Source: Methylocystis sp.
Lineage (GTDB): Bacteria; Pseudomonadota; Alphaproteobacteria; Rhizobiales; Beijerinckiaceae
Reading direction: 5' to 3'
DNA length: 64,000 nucleotides
NCBI GenBank assembly: GCA_051061385.1
Contig: JBPFDX010000094.1
Location: 7,252 to 71,251 of the forward strand
The position numbers and the translations under genes are program-made. Numbering within the stretch: position 1 is the stretch's first letter; each line of letters opens with the position of its first letter. Under the pieces are notes generated by a model that made no database searches, was not told the DNA's origin, and saw only the letters and a list, made by a program, of their open reading frames with translations. Below, in pieces: positions 34,584 through 52,906 of this stretch.

Positions 34584-34760
34584 CCGCCATTCTCCAGCGC
34601 GTTTGCGGGGTTTGCGGCCGGTCTGCGGCGCAAAGCCGCTATTGCGCAAGGGCGGCGCGGTCTCTACGGTTGAGCGCTCATTTTGTGCAGAACGCCCACC
34701 AGCGCGGCGACGTCAACGGCCCGTAGGGAGAAGAGTGGGGAGCGAGGGCACCCTGAGGAC

Positions 34761-36722
34761 ATGGCGAACAACAAAGTCATTACCGCCGACGAGGCGATTG
34801 CGCTCATTCGCGACAATGACGTCGTAACCACCACGGGCTTCGTCCAGAGCTGTATCCCCGAAGCCTTGCACGCCGCCTTGGAAAAGCGCTTCGTCGAGAC
34901 TCAGCATCCGCGCGACCTCACGCTGATCATGACCGCGGGCGCCGGCGACTCCAAGGGCCTCGGCACCGGGCGTTTCCATCACGAAGGATTGTTGCGCCGG
35001 GTCATCGCGGCGAACTTCGGCCGCATGCCGAAGGTCGCCCAGGCCGCGCAGGAAAATAAAATCTGCGGCTACAATCTCCCGCAGGGCGTCATCTCGCAGC
35101 TCTATCGCGCCTGCGCCTCGGGCCAGCCGGGGCTCTTCTCCAAAGTCGGCCTCTACACCTATGTCGATCCGCGCTTTGGCGGCGGCAAGGTGAATGACCG
35201 CACCAAGGAGGACATGGTCAAATACCACAACATCATGGGCGAGGAGTGGCTCTTCTACATCGCCACGAAGATCGACGTCGCCTTCATCCGCGGCACCTCG
35301 GCCGACCCCTCCGGCAATATTTCAATGGAGCGCGAGGCGCTCGTGCTCGACAACCTCGCTCAGGCGATGGCCGCGCATAACAATGGCGGGCTCGTCATCG
35401 CGCAGGTCGAGCGCATCGTCGAGCAGGGGTCGATCAAGCCGAAGGACGTGCATGTGCCGGGCATTCTCGTCTCGGCCGTCGTCGTCGCCGATCCGCCGGA
35501 AATGCACCGGATGAATTACGGCGTGATCCATAATCCCGCGCTTGCGGGCGAGATCCGCGTGCCGGTCGAGAAGTTCGCCAAGATGCCGCTCGACGAGCGC
35601 AAGGTCATCGCCCGTCGCGCCAGCTTCGAGCTGCCGCCGAACGGCGTCGTCAATCTCGGCGTCGGCGCGCCGGAAGGCATCGCCGCGGTCGCCAATGAAG
35701 AAAAGATGACGCCCTACATCACGCTGACGACGGAAGCCGGCGCGATCGGCGGCGTGCTGGCGTCCGGTTCGAGCTTCGGCGCGGCGACCAACGCCGACGC
35801 AATCATCCAGCAGAACCAGCAGTTCGACTTCTATGACGGCGGCGGTCTCGACATGACCTGTCTCGGCATGGCCGAATGCGATCTGCAGGGCAACGTCAAC
35901 ACGTCGAAATTCGGCGGACGGCTCAACGGCTGCGGCGGCTTCATCAATATCAGCCAGAATGCGCGGCTCGTCGTTTACGCCGGCACTTTCACCAATGGCG
36001 GGCTGCGCGTCGAGATCGCCGACGGGAAGGTGAATATCCTGCAGGAAGGCCGGAACAAGAAGTTCCTGAACGCCGTCGAGCAGATCACCTTCTCGGGCAA
36101 ATTCGCGCTAAAGCGCAAGCAGCCAGTCTATTACGTGACCGAGCGCTGCGTGTTCAAACTCGCCGACAAGGGGCTCGAACTGATCGAGGTCGCGCCTGGC
36201 GTCGATATCGACCGGGACATCCTGGCGCATATGGAATTCAAGCCGATCGTCGATCATCCCGAATTGATGGATAAGCGCATCTTCATCGACGAACCGATGG
36301 GGCTGCTCGCGGATCTCATCAACCTCAACATGTCGGATCGCGTCACCTATGACGCCGACCGCAACATCCTGTTCGTCAATCTCGAAGGCTGGCACGCGCG
36401 CACGAAGAAGGACATCGACGATCTGCGCAAGACGCTGATCGAGGCGTCGGAAAAGGTCGGCAAGCGCGTCAACTCCGTCGTCAATCACGACGGCTGGAAG
36501 ATCAATGAGGCGCTCTACGACGATTACGCCGAAATGATCGACTATATGAGCCAGCACTACTATCTGACGACGACGCGCTATGCGACGAGCGCTTTCGCGC
36601 GGCTGAAGATGAAGGAGGCGCTCTCCAAGCGCGGTCTGCAGCCGCATGTGTTCGAGCGGCGCGAGGCGGCGGAGACCTTCCTCGAGGTCGTCAGCAAGGA
36701 AGAGGAGAAGGCGCCGGCGTAA
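34761..36722 (+). CDS. Acyl-CoA:acetate/propionate CoA-transferase (YdiF/Pct type) with extra C-terminal domain
   Basis: Fused alpha/beta CoA-transferase, VNLGVG, TTEAG catalytic Glu, VYYVTERCVF; ~120-aa extension. Confidence 0.88.
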   Translation: MANNKVITADEAIALIRDNDVVTTTGFVQSCIPEALHAALEKRFVETQHPRDLTLIMTAGAGDSKGLGTGRFHHEGLLRRVIAANFGRMPKVAQAAQENKICGYNLPQGVISQLYRACASGQPGLFSKVGLYTYVDPRFGGGKVNDRTKEDMVKYHNIMGEEWLFYIATKIDVAFIRGTSADPSGNISMEREALVLDNLAQAMAAHNNGGLVIAQVERIVEQGSIKPKDVHVPGILVSAVVVADPPEMHRMNYGVIHNPALAGEIRVPVEKFAKMPLDERKVIARRASFELPPNGVVNLGVGAPEGIAAVANEEKMTPYITLTTEAGAIGGVLASGSSFGAATNADAIIQQNQQFDFYDGGGLDMTCLGMAECDLQGNVNTSKFGGRLNGCGGFINISQNARLVVYAGTFTNGGLRVEIADGKVNILQEGRNKKFLNAVEQITFSGKFALKRKQPVYYVTERCVFKLADKGLELIEVAPGVDIDRDILAHMEFKPIVDHPELMDKRIFIDEPMGLLADLINLNMSDRVTYDADRNILFVNLEGWHARTKKDIDDLRKTLIEASEKVGKRVNSVVNHDGWKINEALYDDYAEMIDYMSQHYYLTTTRYATSAFARLKMKEALSKRGLQPHVFERREAAETFLEVVSKEEEKAPA

Positions 36723-36787
36723 GCCAGGCGGCGACTCGGATCCGGCGCTGCCGCACAGCGCCGGTCGTCCTTCAATCGGCTCGCAAT

Positions 36788-36830
36788 AAAACAGGCCCCG
36801 TGGCGCGGAAGCTCACGGGGCCTTTTGCTT
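36788..36830. terminator. Bidirectional intrinsic terminator
   Basis: AAAAC-AGGCCCCGTG...CACGGGGCCT-TTTG: 10-bp stem with T-runs on both strands. Confidence 0.85.
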
Positions 36831-37145
36831 CTCAGGTCGAAGCAAGCCTGGATTGTCCAGTCTGGGGTCGGGCGTCCGATGCTTGGCCTTTGCGTTCGGC
36901 CGCCCGGAAGGATGTCAAATGTCTTCAGAAGATGGACGGACCAAGCAGCTGTTCTTGACCGCCCAGTGACCGGAACGAAACGCCGGTCAAATGGAATGAC
37001 CCGGTGGCGTCATGCTCCTCTCGCAACTTAGTTGCCCGGTTCGGCCCACAACAGGGGTTTTGCAGGCCTTCCATAATCGCCTTCGCATCGAGGTCCCGCC
37101 CGAGCGAGCCTGCCGACCATGCTGCCAGATCGACAAGTGCGATGT
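36789..37145 (-). ncRNA. Candidate large structured ncRNA of unrecognised class
   Basis: Nested long-range helices closing 37121 onto 36833, many internal hairpins, upstream TTGACC-N17-CATCCT and downstream terminator; no credible ORF. Confidence 0.55.
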
Positions 37146-37152
37146 ATCGAAA

Positions 37153-37181
37153 AGGATGAACCCGGTTTCGGATTCGGTCAA
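37153..37181 (-). promoter_or_regulatory. Putative sigma70 promoter for the ncRNA candidate
   Basis: Minus strand TTGACC (37181-37176), 17 nt, CATCCT (37158-37153). Confidence 0.4.
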
Positions 37182-48083: not shown

Positions 48084-48485
48084 CTACGCGTGCGGCGTCA
48101 TCCAGGCGACCATGGCGCCGCCCGGCTCCTGCAGCACCGCCATGCGGCCGACGCCGGGGATGTCGAAGGCGTCCTTGCAGATCGTCGCGCCGGCGGCCTT
48201 GGCCTTCTTTAACCGCGCGTCGACGTCATCGACGCCGATGTAGGTCAGCCAGTGTTCCGCAACGCCCTCGAACTCCGGGCCTTTCATCTCGAACAGGCCG
48301 CCGACCCGCGCGCCTTCGGAGCTGATGAGCCAGTACGTGAAGCCTTGCATCGGCATGCCCTCGAAACTCCAGCCGAGGGATTGGCTGTAAAAGTTTTTCG
48401 CCCGCTCGACGTCGCGGACATTGAGCTCGTTCCAGCAAACCGCGCCATGCTTCGGCGGGGCGCCACAATCATCGGCGTTGGACAT
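48084..48485 (-). CDS. VOC/glyoxalase family protein
   Basis: CWNELNVRDVERAKNFY, WLTYIGVDDVD, DIPGVGRMAVLQEPGGA. Confidence 0.88.
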   Translation of the reverse strand: MSNADDCGAPPKHGAVCWNELNVRDVERAKNFYSQSLGWSFEGMPMQGFTYWLISSEGARVGGLFEMKGPEFEGVAEHWLTYIGVDDVDARLKKAKAAGATICKDAFDIPGVGRMAVLQEPGGAMVAWMTPHA

Positions 48486-48529
48486 CGCCTCCTCCTCTCA
48501 GCTCAACAGTATTTGGTTGAATCAACGTT

Positions 48530-49396
48530 TTACGACGCAGGCGGCTGTTTCGGCAGCAGTCGGAGCCGGCGCGCGGTCAGCCAGTCGATGAGCCGCGCCG
48601 GCAACAGGCTGCGCAGCGTGTAATCGGTGAGGCGATTCCTGACGACGGGAATGCGGACGGGCGGCCGCGGCGCGGTCACCGCCTGCAGCGCCGCCCTTGC
48701 GACCACCTCGGGCCCGGGCGCTTGGCGGCCCTCTTCGACAAGCCAATTCAGCATTCTCCGGCCCGGATCGGCATAAACCGTGCCTGCGAACATGCCGAGA
48801 TCGGTCTCCTCGGCCTTGTCCCAGATCGGCGTTGCGATCATTCCCGGCTCGATCAGGACGACGTCGACGCCATAGACCATCAGCTCGCGGCGCAGCGCGT
48901 CCGACATGCCCTCCAACCCGAATTTCGAGGCGTTGTAGGCGCCAAGGAAGGGCGCCGCGAAACGGCCCGCGACCGAACTCATGTTGACGATGCGGCCGGG
49001 CGGGCCTCGCCGCTCTTCGCCCGCGCCGAGCAGTGGCGCAAAGGCCTGAACGACCCGAAGCTGGCCGATAAGATTGATCTCGAGCTGGCGCCGGAAGTCG
49101 TCGATCGGCAGATGCAGCAGCGGGCCTGGGACGGCGACGCCGGCGTTGTTGACGAGGCCCGCGAGCGTTTGGCCGTCGAGACGCGCCTCGACCTCCCGCG
49201 CCGCGGCCAGGATGGCCTCGCCGTCGGTCACGTCGAAGAGGAGCGGCGCGACGGCGGCGCCGTAGCGCGCGACAAGCTCGGCGGCGTCGGACTCCTTGCG
49301 GACCGACGGGAAAACCAGAAAGCCCTTTTCCACCAAAAGGTCGACGCAGGCCGCGCCAATGCCGGTCGAAGCGCCGGTGACGACGACGGCCCTCAT
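48530..49396 (-). CDS. SDR-family oxidoreductase
   Basis: TGASTGIG, NNAG, YNASK. Confidence 0.92.
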   Translation of the reverse strand: MRAVVVTGASTGIGAACVDLLVEKGFLVFPSVRKESDAAELVARYGAAVAPLLFDVTDGEAILAAAREVEARLDGQTLAGLVNNAGVAVPGPLLHLPIDDFRRQLEINLIGQLRVVQAFAPLLGAGEERRGPPGRIVNMSSVAGRFAAPFLGAYNASKFGLEGMSDALRRELMVYGVDVVLIEPGMIATPIWDKAEETDLGMFAGTVYADPGRRMLNWLVEEGRQAPGPEVVARAALQAVTAPRPPVRIPVVRNRLTDYTLRSLLPARLIDWLTARRLRLLPKQPPAS

Positions 49397-50763
49397 ACGC
49401 GTTCTCCCAGCGCCGCGACAAGCTGGGCGAGCGCCACGCGCGTCTCGCCGTCGGCGCGGCCGTCGACCTTCGCGCGTCGGAAGTGGCGCTGAAACGCCTC
49501 GACCGCCAGGACCGTCTGCGCGTCATAGACGCCGGTCGCATCGACGCGATAGCCGTAGGCGGCGAGATCGCGCTGGAGGGAGGCGACCTTGGCGCCTTCG
49601 TCGCCGAGGGAGACCGTCGTCGCGCCGATGCCCGGGTTTTCCTCCGCGACCCGCCCGACGCCCCGCTGGGCGAGCTCGTCCCAGGGGAAGAATTCGCCGG
49701 GATCGCGCTTGCGGCCGGGCGCGATGTCGGAATGGGCCAGCACGCGTTCCGGCGGTATGGCGCGGCGCCGGGAGATGTCCCTGGCGAGCGCCGCCGTCGC
49801 CTCGATCTGCGCCGCCGGATAGGGCCGCGGGTCGTCGTGGCCAGGGTGAACGATTTCGACGCCGATCGAGGCGGAGTTCATGTCGGTTTCGCCCGCCCAG
49901 AAGCTCTTCCCGGCGTGCCATGCGCGGCGCGACTCCGGCACGAGCTGCAGCACGCGTCCGTCCTCCTCGACGAAATAATGCGCCGAAACCTCAGAGCGCG
50001 GATTGCAGAGCAGGGCGAGCGCCGATTCCGATGTTGGCATGCCCGTGTAATGCAGCACGAGAGACGAGATCGGCCGCAGGCGTTCGCCGTGATTGGGCGA
50101 GGGGCAGACCCTCGCCCCGGCGTAGTCCGGCTCGAAGAAACCCTGGCCGTTGCGCCAGGGCTGCGTCGCGGAAAGCCATTCCCGCGTGCGCGCCTCGGGC
50201 TCCGAGCTGCGCAAAATGTCGGTGACGACGCAGGCGCTGTCGGCGCCGGCGGCGAGCGCGGCGATCGCGCGCTCGGGCGTCAGCCCGCCGATCGCGACAA
50301 GCGGCGTCTCGCCGATCCGCGCCTTCCAGTCGCCGATCCGGGCGAGCCCCTGCGGCGCAAAAGCCATCTGTTTCAGCAGCGTCGGATAGATCGGCCCGAG
50401 CGCGACATAGTCGGCCGCAAGAGAGAGCGCCCGGTCGAATTCGGCCTGGTCGTGCGTCGAAACGCCGATCCTGACGCCGGCGCGGCGCAGCGCTGGAACA
50501 TCGGCCGAATCGAGATCGCCCTGACCGAGATGCACGAAGTCGCAGCCTTCTTCGATCGCGAGCCGCCAGTAGTCGTTGACGACGAGTTGCGCGCCATATC
50601 GCGCGCAGATATCCCGCGCGCTCGCGATCTGCGCGCGCACGTCAGTTTCGGCGCGATCCTTCACCCGCAGCTGCACGAGTTTGACGCCCTGCGGCAGCAG
50701 GCGGGACAGCCAGTCAGCGTCGTCGACGATGAGATAGAAGGGATCGAGCTTCAGCGCCGCCAT
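49393..50763 (-). CDS. thiE: Thiamine-phosphate synthase fused to Zn N-acetylmuramoyl-L-alanine amidase (Amidase_2) and PG-binding domain
   Basis: ThiE motifs QLRVK, VNDY, HLGQ, PTLLK, AIGG; then SPNHGER, LHYT, SAHY, AWHAG, GVEI, HSDIAPGRKRDPG, AFQRHFR. Confidence 0.9.
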   Translation of the reverse strand: MAALKLDPFYLIVDDADWLSRLLPQGVKLVQLRVKDRAETDVRAQIASARDICARYGAQLVVNDYWRLAIEEGCDFVHLGQGDLDSADVPALRRAGVRIGVSTHDQAEFDRALSLAADYVALGPIYPTLLKQMAFAPQGLARIGDWKARIGETPLVAIGGLTPERAIAALAAGADSACVVTDILRSSEPEARTREWLSATQPWRNGQGFFEPDYAGARVCPSPNHGERLRPISSLVLHYTGMPTSESALALLCNPRSEVSAHYFVEEDGRVLQLVPESRRAWHAGKSFWAGETDMNSASIGVEIVHPGHDDPRPYPAAQIEATAALARDISRRRAIPPERVLAHSDIAPGRKRDPGEFFPWDELAQRGVGRVAEENPGIGATTVSLGDEGAKVASLQRDLAAYGYRVDATGVYDAQTVLAVEAFQRHFRRAKVDGRADGETRVALAQLVAALGERV

Positions 50764-50767
50764 CGGC

Positions 50768-51556
50768 TCAGGCCAGCCTGTCGAAGGGCCGGCCGATCAC
50801 CGGCGTCGATGGCTCCGCCATGTCGCGCGGCGTCATCGGCTGGGCTCTGTACCCCGCGCGGCCCGCTTCGATCGCGAGGGCGAAGGCGCGCGCCATCAGC
50901 ACCGGGTCGCCGGCGCGCGAGACGGCGGTGTTGAGCAGCACAGCGTCGTAGCCCATCTCCATCACCAGCGCGGCGTGGGACGGCGCGCCGAGCCCGGCGT
51001 CGACGATGAGCGGCGTGTCGGGAAAATGCGCGCGCAGCGCTCTCAAGGCGAAGGCGTCGTTGACGCCGCGACCGGAGCCGATCGGCGCGGCCCAAGGCAT
51101 CAGCACGCGGCAGCCGGCGTCGAGCAGCTTCTCCGCCACCACGAGATCGTCCGTCGTATAGGGAAAGACTTTGAAACCGTCGTCCGCCAGCGCGCGGGCC
51201 GCTTCGACGAGCCCGAAAACGTCGGGCTGCAGCGTGTCCTCCTCGCCGATCACCTCGAGCTTGATCCAGTCGGTCGCGAAAACTTCGCGCGCCATCTGGG
51301 CGGTGGCGATCGCTTCCTTCGCCGTGCGGCAGCCGGCCGTGTTCGGCAGCACGCGCACGCCGATGTCGCGGATCAGGCTCCAGAAGCTCTCGCCCCCGCG
51401 CGCGCCGCCGGCTTCGCGGCGCAGCGATACGGTGACGATCTCGCAGCCTGACGCGCGAATCGCCTCGGCGAGAATGGCCGGCGACGGATAGCGCGCGGTG
51501 CCGAGCAGCAGCCGCGACGACAGCGCGACGTCGTAAAGCGTCACCCGATCATTCAT
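50768..51556 (-). CDS. thiG: Thiazole synthase
   Basis: [41 protein letters not shown]. Confidence 0.96.
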
Positions 51557-51568
51557 TCGCCAACTCGC

Positions 51569-51766
51569 TCACCCGCCCTGCCGCGGCGTCACGATCTCGA
51601 CCGCGTCGCCCTCGCGCAGCGGCGTCTCGGCGCGATCCTTGGCGCGCACGAACTCCTGGTTCAGAGCGGTGCCGACCGTCTTTTCGTCATATCCCAGTTC
51701 GAGCAGCAGCGTTTGCAACGTCGTCGCGCGGACATCCTGCGGGCGGCCGTTGATTTGAATCATCAT
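51569..51766 (-). CDS. thiS: Thiamine sulfur-carrier protein
   Basis: 65 aa ubiquitin-like fold ending PRQGG. Confidence 0.93.
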   Translation of the reverse strand: MMIQINGRPQDVRATTLQTLLLELGYDEKTVGTALNQEFVRAKDRAETPLREGDAVEIVTPRQGG

Positions 51767-52745
51767 CCATCACCTCTGGGAAATATGCGTCGCTCACGAC
51801 GACCTCCGCCGCGCGGCGCGCCAGCGCCGGCGCAAGCAGGAACCCGTGGCGGTAGAAGCCATTGATATAGAGTGTGCGACCGCGCTTCAAAAGGCGCGGC
51901 AGATTGTCCGCGAAGGCGGGTCGCAGGTCCGAGCCCATCTCGACGATCTCGGCTTCCGCGAAAGCCGGGTGGATCGCGAAGGCCGAATTGACGAGTTCGA
52001 CGACCGAGCGCGCTGTGACCCGCGCGCGCTCCTCATTCTCGATCATCGTCGCGCCGATCATGAACAGCCCGTCGCCGCGAGGCACGACATAAACCGGTCG
52101 TCGCGGATGCAGCATGCGCACCGGGCGCGCCAGGGAAATCTCCTCGCTGCGCAGGATCAGCATTTCGCCCTTCACGCCGCGCAAGCCGGGAAGCGCGTCG
52201 CGCGCCGCGAAGCCGCGGCAGTCGATGGTCCAGTCGGGGATCGTCGCCAGCGCCGCGGCGTCCTGCTGAAAATGCAGCGTCACATTCGGCGCCTTCGCGA
52301 GACGCTGCGTCAGCGCGGCAAGCGCCGCGCGTGGATCGAGATGCGCTTCTTGCGGGAAAAAAAGCGCCGCGTCGAAGCGCCCCGCCAGATCCGGCTCAAG
52401 CGCCGCGATTGCGTTGCCATCCAGCGCCTCGAAATGGCGCGTGCGCCGCGCGAAGTCGGCGAGTTCGGCGCGCTCGCGGGCGGGCGCGACGACGAGGCTG
52501 CCGGCGACCGTGGCGACGCTGAGCTCGCGCGACCAGAAGTCGAGCGCCTCTTCGCCGAGAGTCGCGACCAGCGGCTCGGCGCTTTCCAGTTCGCACCAGG
52601 GCGCGATCATGCCGCCGGCGAAGCGCGAGCAGCCGAGGCCGGCGGCCGGCTCGCGTTCGACGATCTCGACGTCGACGCCCTTTCGCGCGAGGGCGTCGGC
52701 CGCGCAAAGGCCGGCGACGCCGGCGCCGATTACGCGCGCCAGCAC
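51687..52745 (-). CDS. thiO: Glycine oxidase
   Basis: GAGVAG, AGGMIAP, RGVKGE, GATM, RPAFADNLP, NGFYRHG. Confidence 0.92.
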   Translation of the reverse strand: MLARVIGAGVAGLCAADALARKGVDVEIVEREPAAGLGCSRFAGGMIAPWCELESAEPLVATLGEEALDFWSRELSVATVAGSLVVAPARERAELADFARRTRHFEALDGNAIAALEPDLAGRFDAALFFPQEAHLDPRAALAALTQRLAKAPNVTLHFQQDAAALATIPDWTIDCRGFAARDALPGLRGVKGEMLILRSEEISLARPVRMLHPRRPVYVVPRGDGLFMIGATMIENEERARVTARSVVELVNSAFAIHPAFAEAEIVEMGSDLRPAFADNLPRLLKRGRTLYINGFYRHGFLLAPALARRAAEVVVSDAYFPEVMDDDSNQRPPAGCPRDDVANAAARTGI

Positions 52746-52775
52746 GAACGGCGCCTTTCTGCGATATGCGCTGAC

Positions 52776-52906
52776 ACCATCCCTCCGCCAGTCTCAACTG
52801 GATCAGGTTCGAAGGGTCGCCGCGCCCGCGCCTCGCGGCGCTTTCTGCGGCCTCTCAGCCCCTTGGCGGCGCATAGCGGCGCGCCTCCGGCAGGGCTCCC
52901 CCGGCC
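52776..52906 (-). promoter_or_regulatory. TPP riboswitch
   Basis: GGGGAGCCC...GGCTGAGA...GACCCTTCGAACCTGATCCAGTTGAGACTGGCGGAGGGA upstream of thiO. Confidence 0.95.

What the first reader, a model, noticed from the sequence alone, without database searches (positions are those of the whole stretch)
36789..37181. Orphan ~290-355 nt highly structured RNA candidate with its own promoter and terminator
Seen on the minus strand of a 550-bp gap with no credible ORF. Nested long-range helices: P1 CA(U)GGUCG-GCAGGC (37121-37108) with GCUUGC-UU-CGACCUG (36847-36833); P2 UCGGGCG (37103-37097) with CGCCCGA (36874-36868); P3 UCGAUGC (37091-37085) with GCAUCGG (36882-36876); P4 UGGAAGG with CCUUCCG. Local hairpins: CUGGA/UCCAG, GGCC/GGCC, GCAAC/GUUGC, GGA-AUGAC/GUCAU-UCC, UGACCGG/CCGGUCA, UCUUC/GAAGA. 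G-U pairs favour the minus strand. TTGACC-N17-CATCCT lies upstream (TSS about 37145) and a bidirectional terminator lies directly downstream, so it cannot be a leader for any gene. It lacks the hallmark motifs of RNase P, two-piece tmRNA, SRP, 6S, cobalamin/SAM riboswitches and group I/II introns. Inference: an unclassified large ncRNA, divergent from the SahR-controlled methionine operon.
Basis: partly seen in the sequence, partly recalled or inferred. Interest (0 to 1): 0.85.

Follow-up and report, generated by a model that had tools for sequence, protein, structure and literature searches.

The report
Abundant structured RNA with Pro-Pro mini-ORF
The gap holds a real, separately transcribed, very abundant RNA of about 355 bases, an undescribed family in methane-oxidising Methylocystis/Methylosinus and many Bradyrhizobium, and its most conserved part is a ribosome-binding site plus a tiny reading frame (Met-Thr-Pro-Pro-Gly), so it probably works by engaging ribosomes.

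Summary
The finding is real. Window 37143..~36788 (minus strand) is a single-copy gene with a conserved TTGAC promoter and an intrinsic terminator. Metatranscriptomes contain it as a discrete, deep contig with no coverage of the flanks. In Methylosinus sporium and a Bradyrhizobium, the homologue's RNA starts exactly at the predicted start site. No Rfam 15 family matches. The genome's tmRNA, 6S and RNase P genes lie elsewhere.

I collected 135 distinct homologues. All come from a few Rhizobiales lineages, and their neighbouring genes differ. Covariation strongly supports about 11 local helices (59 of 85 pairs with compensatory changes; 22 of 22 in a 99-sequence model alignment).

The new result is that the near-invariant core is not a helix. 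It is GAGAGGAG (8-bp complement of the 16S 3' end), one base, then AUG ACG CCA CCG GGU. The two Pro codons vary only at third positions. The start codon is kept (GUG) or moved in frame. The next residue is Gly, Ala, Asp or Ser.

My best reading (an inference) is a leader-peptide-like, ribosome-engaging sRNA that reports Pro-Pro (EF-P-dependent) elongation. Its function is untested.

The parts
37176..37181 (-). -35 box TTGACC
   Evidence: Read from the sequence. TTGAC lies 153-177 nt upstream of the core in 71 of 74 homologues.
37153..37158 (-). -10-like hexamer CATCCT, 17 nt after the -35 box
   Evidence: Read from the sequence. The equivalent hexamers CACCAT (M. sporium) and CAGCAT (Bradyrhizobium) lie 6-7 nt before the observed RNA 5' ends. 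The generic sigma-70 scan did not score it.
36786..37143 (-). The RNA itself, about 355 nt. The 5' end (37143, possibly 37145) is inferred by homology. The 3' end is at the terminator U tract.
   Evidence: Discrete metatranscriptome contigs cover 36823..37128 at depth 375, 81 and 14 with zero flank coverage. Homologue 5' ends fall at the conserved A/G of AUCGC/GCUGC. It is single copy in the genome.
37076..37143 (-). 5' domain: P1 (AUCGC 37143..37139 with GCGAU 37080..37076) enclosing P2 (37137..37109) and P3 (37107..37083, loop CGGGAC within the block UCGRGCGGGACCUC)
   Evidence: P1 is 93% paired with 2 compensatory pairs, P2 has 9 of 10 pairs compensatory, and P3 is about 90% paired with 7 of 9 compensatory. 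The same topology appears with other sequences in Bradyrhizobium.
37023..37072 (-). P4 (37072..37038, variable hairpin) and P5 (GCAAC/GUUGC, 37035..37023)
   Evidence: P4 has 8 of 8 pairs with compensatory change. P5 has 4 of 4 in the 99-sequence alignment.
37015..37022 (-). Extended Shine-Dalgarno GAGAGGAG, one base before the AUG
   Evidence: GGAG is invariant or nearly so in 135 homologues. It is an 8-bp complement (one G-U) of the 16S 3' end ..CACCUCCUUUCU, read on own-genome contig C61.
36987..37013 (-). Mini-ORF AUG ACG CCA CCG GGU CAU UCC AUU UGA (MTPPGHSI*)
   Evidence: In 135 homologues the Pro codons show 0 changes at positions 1 and 2, and 6 and 2 sequences changed at position 3. 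AUG is replaced once by GUG and once moved one codon in frame. The residue after Pro-Pro is G 93, A 20, D 18, S 1. The ORF is 5-8 codons in 49 of the first 67.
36967..36989 (-). P6 hairpin UGACCGG/CCGGUCA; its 5' strand contains the mini-ORF stop codon
   Evidence: 89-91% paired with covarying inner pairs. Its UGACC can alternatively pair with GGUCA of the ORF (98% paired, no double changes).
36933..36965 (-). P7 hairpin with a palindromic loop (CAGCUG here, AGCGCU in many relatives)
   Evidence: 11 of 11 pairs show compensatory change. CAGCUG or AGCGCU lies within 130 nt downstream of the core in 99 of 132 homologues.
36869..36906 (-). P8 three-part stem with the conserved loop GC-AAAGGCCAA-GC
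   Evidence: 9 of 9 outer and middle pairs are compensatory. The loop motif RAAGGCCAMG is present in 124 of 132.
36827..36860 (-). P9 (CUGGA/UCCAG, 36860..36848) and P10 (GCUUC/GAAGC, 36843..36827)
   Evidence: P10 is 84% paired with 4 of 5 pairs compensatory. P9 is conserved as ACUGG..CCAG but poorly aligned by MAFFT.
36786..36822 (-). Intrinsic terminator GGCCCCGUG..CACGGGGCC plus UGUUUUAUU; also serves the convergent + strand gene
   Evidence: the 7 outer pairs are invariant. Kept in 131 of 132 homologues.

Best explanation
Window 37143..~36788 (minus strand) is a free-standing, single-copy gene for a very abundant, highly structured RNA of about 355 nt. It belongs to an undescribed family restricted to a few Rhizobiales lineages. 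A sigma-70-like promoter (TTGACC-N17-CATCCT) drives it and an intrinsic terminator ends it. This much is shown, and I am about 0.9 confident of it.

The functional heart of the RNA is an unpaired segment between helices P5 and P6. It consists of an extended Shine-Dalgarno sequence (GAGAGGAG), one base, and a mini-ORF AUG-ACG-CCA-CCG-GGU (M-T-P-P-G/A/D/S). This segment evolves like a translated sequence.

Inferred, about 0.55 confident: ribosomes load on this RNA, and what matters is the act of decoding Pro-Pro-Gly, not the 5-8 residue peptide. Pro-Pro-Gly is a canonical motif that needs EF-P for fast peptide-bond formation.

Inferred, about 0.3 confident: a ribosome paused on Pro-Pro, held in addition by the adjacent 8-bp SD:anti-SD duplex, covers the GGGUCA segment. 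That determines whether UGACC pairs upstream or closes P6, and so sets the fold, stability or activity of the conserved 3' domain (P6-P10). In that reading the RNA is an orphan leader-peptide-type sensor of translation-elongation capacity (EF-P or prolyl-tRNA) that acts in trans, not on a downstream gene.
For: Transcript. Discrete 303-313 nt contigs lie exactly on 36823..37128 in three metatranscriptomes at depth 375, 81 and 14, with no flank coverage. In M. sporium 5 two cDNA libraries give contigs starting exactly at the A of AUCGCG, 6 nt after the -10 box, at depth about 3400 and 2900 against about 16 nearby. In a Bradyrhizobium an adapter-flanked cDNA starts at the predicted start site.

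Gene autonomy. The promoter and terminator sit at fixed distances from the core in 67+ loci. The flanking genes differ between lineages. The RNA is single copy.

Structure. The MFE z-score is -4.37 on this strand only. In the local-helix model 77% of cells are paired against 35-45% in slid controls, 59 of 85 pairs show compensatory change, and 0 of 500 shuffles reach the observed values. In a 99-sequence alignment fitted to the covariance model, which leans towards the model's structure, 22 of 22 pairs are compensatory and the covariation score is 0.435 against at most 0.15 for slid partners.

Not a known family. Searches find no match. tmRNA, 6S and RNase P are found elsewhere in the genome.

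Mini-ORF. GGAG and AUG are near-invariant. Positions 1 and 2 of both Pro codons never change in 135 homologues, while third positions do (CCA>CCG, CCG>CCU). ACG>ACU occurs, and all four Gly codons are seen. AUG>GUG and AUGACG>ACGAUG both keep an in-frame start. The residue after Pro-Pro is limited to G, A, D or S. The stop codon is the UGA of the conserved UGACC in most Methylocystaceae, and a 3-nt length difference between clades keeps it in frame. The SD is an 8-bp complement of the genome's own 16S 3' end.
Against: No ribosome profiling, toeprint or peptide evidence exists.

The SD lies only 1 nt from the AUG in almost all members. By established knowledge of SD spacing (optimum about 5-9 nt) this is too short for efficient initiation in the strong pairing register; a weaker GAGG register gives 3 nt.

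The nucleotides of the core are far more conserved than a 5-codon peptide requires, so an RNA-level constraint (a binding site or a helix with the following segment) also acts and could by itself explain much of the conservation.

The codon-position signal rests on few variable sites: three of the four variable sites in codons 2-4 are third positions, roughly p = 0.05 by simple counting. Half of the homologues were also gathered with an exact-core pattern, which biases towards invariance.

ORF length is not conserved (5-31 codons). The mutually exclusive GGUCA/UGACC versus P6 pairing holds in Methylocystaceae but not in Bradyrhizobium, where the two helices can coexist. No target, partner or phenotype is known.
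Confidence: 0.55

Rival explanations
1. A purely non-coding structured RNA, either a component or sponge of an RNA-protein complex or a base-pairing sRNA. The invariant segment GAGAGGAGCAUGACGCCACCGGGU would be a binding site, for example for the 16S 3' end or 30S subunit, for a protein, or for a conserved target RNA. The AUG-Pro-Pro frame would be incidental.
For: The core is conserved at nearly every nucleotide, including most wobble positions. The SD-like element is an 8-bp match to the 16S 3' end but sits 1 nt from the AUG, which is poorly placed for initiation (spacing rule from established knowledge). The RNA is very abundant, like 6S RNA or other sponges. The large covarying architecture is typical of RNP RNAs. 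ORF length is variable.
Against: The few changes that do occur in the core fall on third codon positions or preserve a start codon, including a two-base AUGACG>ACGAUG swap and AUG>GUG. The residue after Pro-Pro stays within G, A, D and S. No partner is known.
Confidence: 0.3
2. A dual-function sRNA whose small peptide (MTPPG...) is itself the active product.
For: It is an independent transcript with an SD, a start codon and an ORF. Dual-function sRNAs are an established class (review PMC12612679, listed).
Against: Only M-T-P-P plus one residue is conserved. The ORF is 5-8 codons in most Methylocystaceae and 17-25 unrelated codons in Bradyrhizobium. A 5-residue peptide with no conserved tail is an unlikely effector.
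Confidence: 0.05
3. A cis-acting leader, riboswitch or attenuator for a downstream gene.
For: In some lineages a same-strand gene follows about 140 nt after the terminator, and M. sporium cDNA contigs run through the terminator into the next gene. The layout of a 5' structured domain followed by SD/AUG resembles a riboswitch platform.
Against: In the window the next gene is convergent. The downstream genes are unrelated between lineages (BamA/TamA-like, thiE, nasT, a DsbA-like gene). The terminator is universal. The 5' domain sequence is not conserved between Methylocystaceae and Bradyrhizobium.
Confidence: 0.03
4. A divergent member of a known RNA family (tmRNA, RNase P, 6S, SRP, or a known alphaproteobacterial sRNA).
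For: Its size and abundance resemble housekeeping RNAs.
Against: No Rfam 15 match at gathering threshold in the window or in 10 diverse homologues, and only chance-level matches at E<=10. ARAGORN is negative. tmRNA, 6S and RNase P are found elsewhere in the genome. The narrow, patchy distribution does not fit a universal RNA.
Confidence: 0.02
5. A repeat element (MITE) or a decayed gene fragment that merely folds well.
For: None beyond its intergenic location.
Against: It is single copy. The second hit lies on a contaminating Bradyrhizobium contig. There is no protein homology. Compensatory substitutions maintain the helices, and it is transcribed as a discrete abundant RNA.
Confidence: 0.01

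Closest known systems
Leader-peptide attenuator RNAs that also act as free sRNAs (rhizobial trpL / rnTrpL with peptide peTrpL; Salmonella mgtP Pro-Pro-Pro leader). Recalled from the literature, not tested here.
   Same: A short ORF with its own SD whose decoding of particular codons (here Pro-Pro) is the likely signal. It is followed by hairpins that can pair alternatively, and the transcript ends at an intrinsic terminator. By my recollection, trpL is reported as a free-standing gene in some rhizobia.
   Different: This RNA is three times larger, with about 11 conserved helices. The terminator lies 165 nt after the ORF and is not part of an obvious antiterminator/terminator pair. No regulated downstream gene exists. 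The SD is only 1 nt from the AUG. The alternative pairing is not universal in the family.
Dual-function sRNAs (SgrS/SgrT, RNAIII/hld, SR1/SR1P, Spot 42/SpfP)
   Same: An independent, abundant sRNA gene that carries an SD-led small ORF within a structured RNA.
   Different: The ORF is only 5-8 codons in most members and only M-T-P-P-x is conserved. No base-pairing seed or target has been identified.
Large structured bacterial ncRNAs of unknown function found by comparative genomics (raiA, ROOL, GOLLD, OLE classes)
   Same: Length over 300 nt, many covarying helices, conserved loops, lineage-restricted distribution, high expression, and no assigned biochemical function.
   Different: No sequence or model similarity (Rfam negative). 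It occurs in other phyla and lineages, and it contains a conserved SD plus mini-ORF, which those classes are not known to have.
6S RNA (a sponge for RNA polymerase), as an analogy for an abundant RNA that mimics a substrate of the expression machinery
   Same: Very abundant, a stand-alone gene, and it presents a perfect mimic of a machinery-binding site (here an 8-bp SD plus start codon for the ribosome).
   Different: The fold is different (multi-hairpin, not a rod with a bubble). A canonical 6S gene is present elsewhere in the genome. Ribosome binding is untested.

Membership tests
Any Rfam 15 family (RNase P, tmRNA, 6S, SRP, riboswitches, alphaproteobacterial sRNAs) | Covariance-model match at the family's gathering score | tested here: not met
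   0 hits in the whole window. Only sub-threshold chance matches at E<=10. 0 hits in 10 diverse homologous loci. ARAGORN finds no tmRNA.
Housekeeping RNA replacement (tmRNA / 6S / RNase P) | The canonical gene is absent elsewhere in the genome | tested here: not met
   alpha_tmRNA on C65, 6S on C10 and RNase P on C72 are all found over the cut-off.
Free-standing bacterial sRNA gene | Own promoter and a defined 5' end | tested here: met
   The TTGAC box is conserved at a fixed distance. RNA 5' ends in M. sporium and Bradyrhizobium homologues fall 6-7 nt after the -10 hexamer. In the window itself the start is inferred by homology.
Free-standing bacterial sRNA gene | Own intrinsic terminator and a discrete transcript not shared with neighbours | tested here: met
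   Terminator. Discrete contigs on 36823..37128 with zero flank depth. Neighbouring genes are not conserved.
Structured RNA | Base pairs maintained by compensatory substitutions, above controls | tested here: met
   (0 of 500 shuffles reach the observed values; slid controls are far lower). The MFE z-score is -4.37.
Ribosome-dependent leader-peptide attenuator | SD-led short ORF with conserved regulatory codons | tested here: met
   SD, AUG and Pro-Pro are conserved, with third-position-only variation in the Pro codons.
Ribosome-dependent leader-peptide attenuator | Mutually exclusive helices overlapping the ORF end | tested here: inconclusive
   GGUCA/UGACC (98% paired, no double changes) competes with P6 in Methylocystaceae. 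In Bradyrhizobium the corresponding helices are adjacent and compatible.
Ribosome-dependent leader-peptide attenuator | The terminator controls a downstream structural gene of the sensed pathway | tested here: not met
   The next gene is convergent in the window, and downstream genes are unrelated between lineages.
Ribosome-dependent leader-peptide attenuator / dual-function sRNA | The ORF is actually translated | not testable with these tools
   No ribosome-profiling or proteomic data could be reached. Only evolutionary evidence is available.
Dual-function sRNA | A conserved peptide product | tested here: not met
   Only M-T-P-P-x is conserved. ORF length is 5-31 codons and the tails are unrelated.
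MITE / repeat element | Multiple dispersed copies | tested here: not met
   One copy by BLAST. The second covariance-model hit is on a contig about 85% identical, flanks included, to Bradyrhizobium, which indicates MAG contamination.

The most novel reading that the evidence does not exclude
An abundant 'ribosome-reporting' RNA. An extended SD placed directly against a Met-Thr-Pro-Pro-Gly mini-ORF would trap a ribosome at an EF-P-dependent stall. The occupancy of that one site would then switch the fold of a 350-nt RNA, which acts in trans or titrates ribosomes. This would be a stand-alone sensor of translation-elongation capacity, with no described equivalent among bacterial sRNAs.
Probability: 0.28. 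Interest if true: 0.85.

Novelty: new variant of a known kind. Interest (0 to 1): 0.72.

Why it matters
This RNA appears to be among the most abundant transcripts in type II methanotrophs (Methylocystis, Methylosinus) and is present in about a third of the sampled Bradyrhizobium species genomes. Both groups matter for methane cycling and for nitrogen fixation. It has no Rfam family, and the one genome-wide transcription-unit study of such an organism did not name it (PMC12403871).

It adds a large covarying RNA class with more than 130 distinct members. Its conserved centre is a ribosome-binding site plus a Pro-Pro mini-ORF. That makes a specific question testable with standard genetics and toeprinting: can a free sRNA read out elongation capacity (EF-P or proline)? 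The family model can also improve the annotation of metatranscriptomes, where this RNA appears as an unexplained deep contig.

Tried and rejected

2. Pairing between the internal SD and the CU-rich P7-P8 linker (self-sequestration) has a mean z of +0.15 against shuffled linkers, so there is no support.

3. The idea of a universal GGUCA/UGACC versus P6 switch fails: the pairing is well kept but shows no double changes, and it is not exclusive in Bradyrhizobium.

4. The RNA is not a tmRNA, 6S or RNase P and matches no other Rfam family.

5. The second copy in the own genome (C6) lies on a contaminating Bradyrhizobium contig.

6. The class-level hit L175 is a false positive inside a coding region.

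7. A second GGAGCATGACGCCGCCTGA site on contig C59 lies at a gene junction and is a chance match.

8. No link to SahR or methionine metabolism: the adjacency holds only in part of Methylocystis.

9. Searching the supplementary tables of PMC12403871 for this RNA's sequence found nothing. The BjsR1-10 sRNAs of PMC5082802 could not be mapped to it.

10. Structure-aware MAFFT (Q-INS-i) was not installed. RNAalifold on the raw MAFFT alignment found only 27 pairs, so I built clade-wise consensus folds and tested a hand-built model.

11. Earlier scan notes held nothing on this element.
Full report
**What lies in the gap.** The + strand gene 34683..36722 encodes a 679-aa CoA-transferase and ends at 36722. 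The next + strand gene, an ArsR/SahR-like regulator with a methyltransferase domain, starts at about GTG 37272 and is followed by metF and metH. None of the six short ORFs in the 550-bp gap has a Pfam match at E<=1. On the minus strand I read TTGACC (37181..37176), a 17-nt spacer, CATCCT (37158..37153), the candidate RNA, and a GC-rich hairpin plus U tract (36822..36786). The 393-nt stretch folds much better than dinucleotide shuffles on the minus strand (z = -4.37, 0 of 100 shuffles as good) but not on the plus strand (z = -0.69).

**It matches no known family.** Rfam 15 gives no hit at gathering score in the whole window. At E<=10 on the gap it gives only chance-level matches. It gives no hit in ten diverse homologous loci. 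ARAGORN finds no tmRNA here. The genome has its alpha-type tmRNA, 6S RNA and RNase P RNA on other contigs.

**Copy number and distribution.**
- BLAST finds one copy in the genome.
- A covariance model later found a second copy on contig C6. That contig is about 85% identical over 3.1 kb, flanks included, to Bradyrhizobium loci and has a lower G+C content (0.60 against 0.65). It is therefore MAG contamination.
- By BLAST, 29 of the 37 same-genus genomes searched (the window's own included) have the element, and none of 24 other families of the order do.
- An exact scan for the invariant core found 67 loci in Methylocystis, Methylosinus, Methylocapsa aurea and several Bradyrhizobium species.
- With covariance model R1 (core plus P5-P7) the element occurs in 6 of 53 sampled genera of the family, in 65 of 201 species genomes of the Bradyrhizobium-like genus, and in one further family of the order.
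- It was found nowhere else in a 401-genome sample of the class. The single marginal hit there is a false positive inside a coding region.
- In total I hold 135 distinct homologues.

**It is a gene of its own.**
- TTGAC lies 153-177 nt upstream of the core and the terminator 194-222 nt downstream in essentially all loci. The terminator is kept in 131 of 132.
- The flanking genes are not conserved. They are SahR and CoA-transferase in the main Methylocystis clades, but elsewhere a BamA/TamA-like protein, thiE, nasT/nrtA, or a flavin monooxygenase and a DsbA-like protein.
- The link to the methionine genes is therefore incidental, and the RNA cannot be a conserved leader.

**It is transcribed, discrete and abundant.**
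- Three metatranscriptomes each hold one contig of 303-313 nt that lies exactly, with no mismatch, on 36823..37128. Their depths are 375, 81 and 14, and the flanks have zero depth.
- Pure-culture libraries that appear to come from Methylosinus sporium 5 (run names are coded, so this is inferred) give contigs beginning exactly at L069:1250. That base is the A of AUCGCG, 6 nt after the -10 hexamer. Depth there is about 3400 and 2900, against about 16 nearby. The RNA-seq contigs stop just before the terminator hairpin.
- The published transcription-unit map of that strain named intergenic RNAs only when Rfam matched them, and it does not mention this RNA (PMC12403871).
- In a rhizosphere metatranscriptome, an adapter-flanked cDNA of a Bradyrhizobium homologue starts at the predicted start site, 6-7 nt after CAGCAT.
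- By homology, the window's RNA starts at 37143. It could instead start at 37145, which fits the -10 spacing slightly better.
- Contigs carry no strand information. The orientation rests on the promoter, the terminator, the one-sided sharp 5' boundary and the fold asymmetry.

**Secondary structure.**
- Clade-wise consensus folds of six clades give the same architecture with different sequences.
- P1 (AUCGC/GCGAU) closes a 5' domain that holds P2 and P3.
- P4 and P5 follow, then an unpaired core, then P6, P7 (palindromic loop CAGCUG or AGCGCU) and a linker.
- After the linker come P8 (loop AAGGCCAA), P9, P10 and the terminator.
- I tested this model on a sequence-only MAFFT alignment of 50 sequences less than 93% identical (A1). 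In it 77.2% of cells are paired, against 35-45% when partners are slid. Compensatory changes occur in 59 of 85 pairs, and no shuffle out of 500 reaches any observed measure.
- In a 99-sequence alignment made with the covariance model, all 22 pairs of P5-P7 show compensatory changes. The covariation score is 0.435 against at most 0.15 for slid partners. This alignment leans towards the model's structure, which is why I report the slid controls.

**The core is an SD plus a mini-ORF.** The only long invariant segment, GAGAGGAGCAUGACGCCACCGGGU, lies unpaired between P5 and P6.
- GAGAGGAG is an 8-bp complement (one G-U) of the genome's own 16S 3' end ...CACCUCCUUUCU.
- One base later comes AUG ACG CCA CCG GGU.
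- Across 135 homologues GGAG is essentially invariant.
- The AUG is replaced once by GUG. Once AUGACG becomes ACGAUG, which moves the start one codon in frame.
- The first two positions of both Pro codons never change, while their third positions do: CCA>CCG in 6 sequences and CCG>CCU in 2, the latter in separate lineages.
- ACG>ACU and ACG>AUG both occur.
- The fifth codon uses all four Gly codons, or encodes Ala, Asp or Ser.
- In 49 of the first 67 sequences the ORF is 5-8 codons and ends at a UGA. In the 7- and 8-codon versions this is the UGA of the conserved UGACC that opens P6, and a 3-nt length difference between clades keeps it in frame.
- After the fifth codon the peptide is not conserved. 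In Bradyrhizobium the ORF runs 17-25 codons.

**How I read this.** The pattern looks like a decoded sequence, and Pro-Pro-Gly/Asp is the classic motif at which ribosomes stall without EF-P (established knowledge; see for example PMC11611912 and PMC8129111, listed). Four cautions apply:
- The variable sites are few, giving roughly p = 0.05 by simple counting.
- Half of the sequences were collected with an exact-core pattern.
- The nucleotide conservation exceeds what a pentapeptide needs.
- The SD is 1 nt from the AUG, which is unfavourable for initiation in the strong pairing register. A weaker GAGG register leaves 3 nt.

**Mechanism.** Shown: a free-standing, abundant, structured RNA gene whose conserved centre has the features of a ribosome-binding site and a start codon followed by Pro-Pro. 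Inferred: ribosomes load there and pause on Pro-Pro. The strong SD could re-pair once the ribosome has moved one or two codons, which would prolong the pause. A paused ribosome would cover GGGUCA, which otherwise pairs with the UGACC that is also the 5' strand of P6 (98% paired). Ribosome occupancy would thereby set the fold of the conserved 3' domain. This resembles leader-peptide attenuators and the free trpL-type sRNAs of rhizobia, but there is no downstream gene, so the output must act in trans or through the RNA's own stability or ribosome binding. Two weak points remain: the exclusive pairing is not universal in the family, and a test for SD sequestration by the CU-rich linker was negative.

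**Rivals.** The main rival is a purely non-coding RNA in which the core is a binding site, for example a 30S/16S mimic or a protein site. It explains the extreme nucleotide conservation and the odd SD spacing, but not the codon-like substitutions or the start-codon compensation. A functional micro-peptide, a cis leader, a divergent known family, and a repeat or gene remnant are each contradicted by specific tests (see the rival and membership tables).

**Novelty.** I found no description of this RNA in Rfam 15 or in the searchable literature. It is a new RNA family. The kind (a bacterial sRNA with a leader-like mini-ORF) is known, but three things together are unusual: its size, its abundance, and an SD-abutted Pro-Pro mini-ORF as the conserved centre.

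Noticed in passing
Own genome contig C6:13935-14043 (locus L104): The MAG holds a second, Bradyrhizobium-type copy of this RNA. The contig is about 85% identical over 3.1 kb, flanks included, to Bradyrhizobium loci and has a lower G+C (0.60 against 0.65). It is most likely a contaminating contig in the bin.
   Followed up: yes
window 37158-37175 (minus strand), inside the promoter spacer: The inverted repeat GAAUCCG-AAA-CCGGGUUC lies between the -35 and -10 boxes and was flagged as 'terminator-like' by the scan. A looser GAA-N12-TTC is kept in several clades. In Bradyrhizobium the palindrome CTGCCGCAG sits at the same place. These are possible operators for an unknown repressor.
   Followed up: no
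window 36738-36765: A strong GC hairpin (CCGGCGCUG-UGCG-GCAGCGCCGG on the minus-strand reading) lies between the stop of the CoA-transferase gene (36722) and the shared terminator. Its role is unknown.
   Followed up: no
window 36933-36965 (P7 loop) and 36869-36906 (P8 loop): The two most conserved hairpin loops contain palindromes: CAGCUG or AGCGCU in P7 and GGCC in P8. They could mediate loop-loop dimerisation of the RNA or bind a dimeric protein.
   Followed up: partly
window 48084-52906 (another first-reader note, e1-5259419): That note assumes a TPP riboswitch upstream of a ThiE fusion. The Rfam gathering-threshold scan of the whole window returned no family at all, so that riboswitch call needs checking.
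   Followed up: no
L074 (NZ_LMRS01000037.1, 430-nt contig labelled Sphingomonas sp. Leaf339): This tiny contig carries a Methylocystis-type copy of the RNA, nearly identical to those of clade A. It is probably a foreign fragment in that assembly and not a Sphingomonas gene.
   Followed up: no
L127:301-335 in run X46: In a rhizosphere metatranscriptome the 31-32-nt words of the invariant core reach depths of 95-227, while the rest of the RNA is at about 17. Many co-existing strains evidently share the core but differ around it.
   Followed up: no
Own genome contig C59, about 49078 on the reverse strand: GGAGCATGACGCCGCCTGA (the same SD-AUG-ACG-CCG-CC as the core) occurs at the junction of two protein-coding genes. 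I judged it a chance match.
   Followed up: partly
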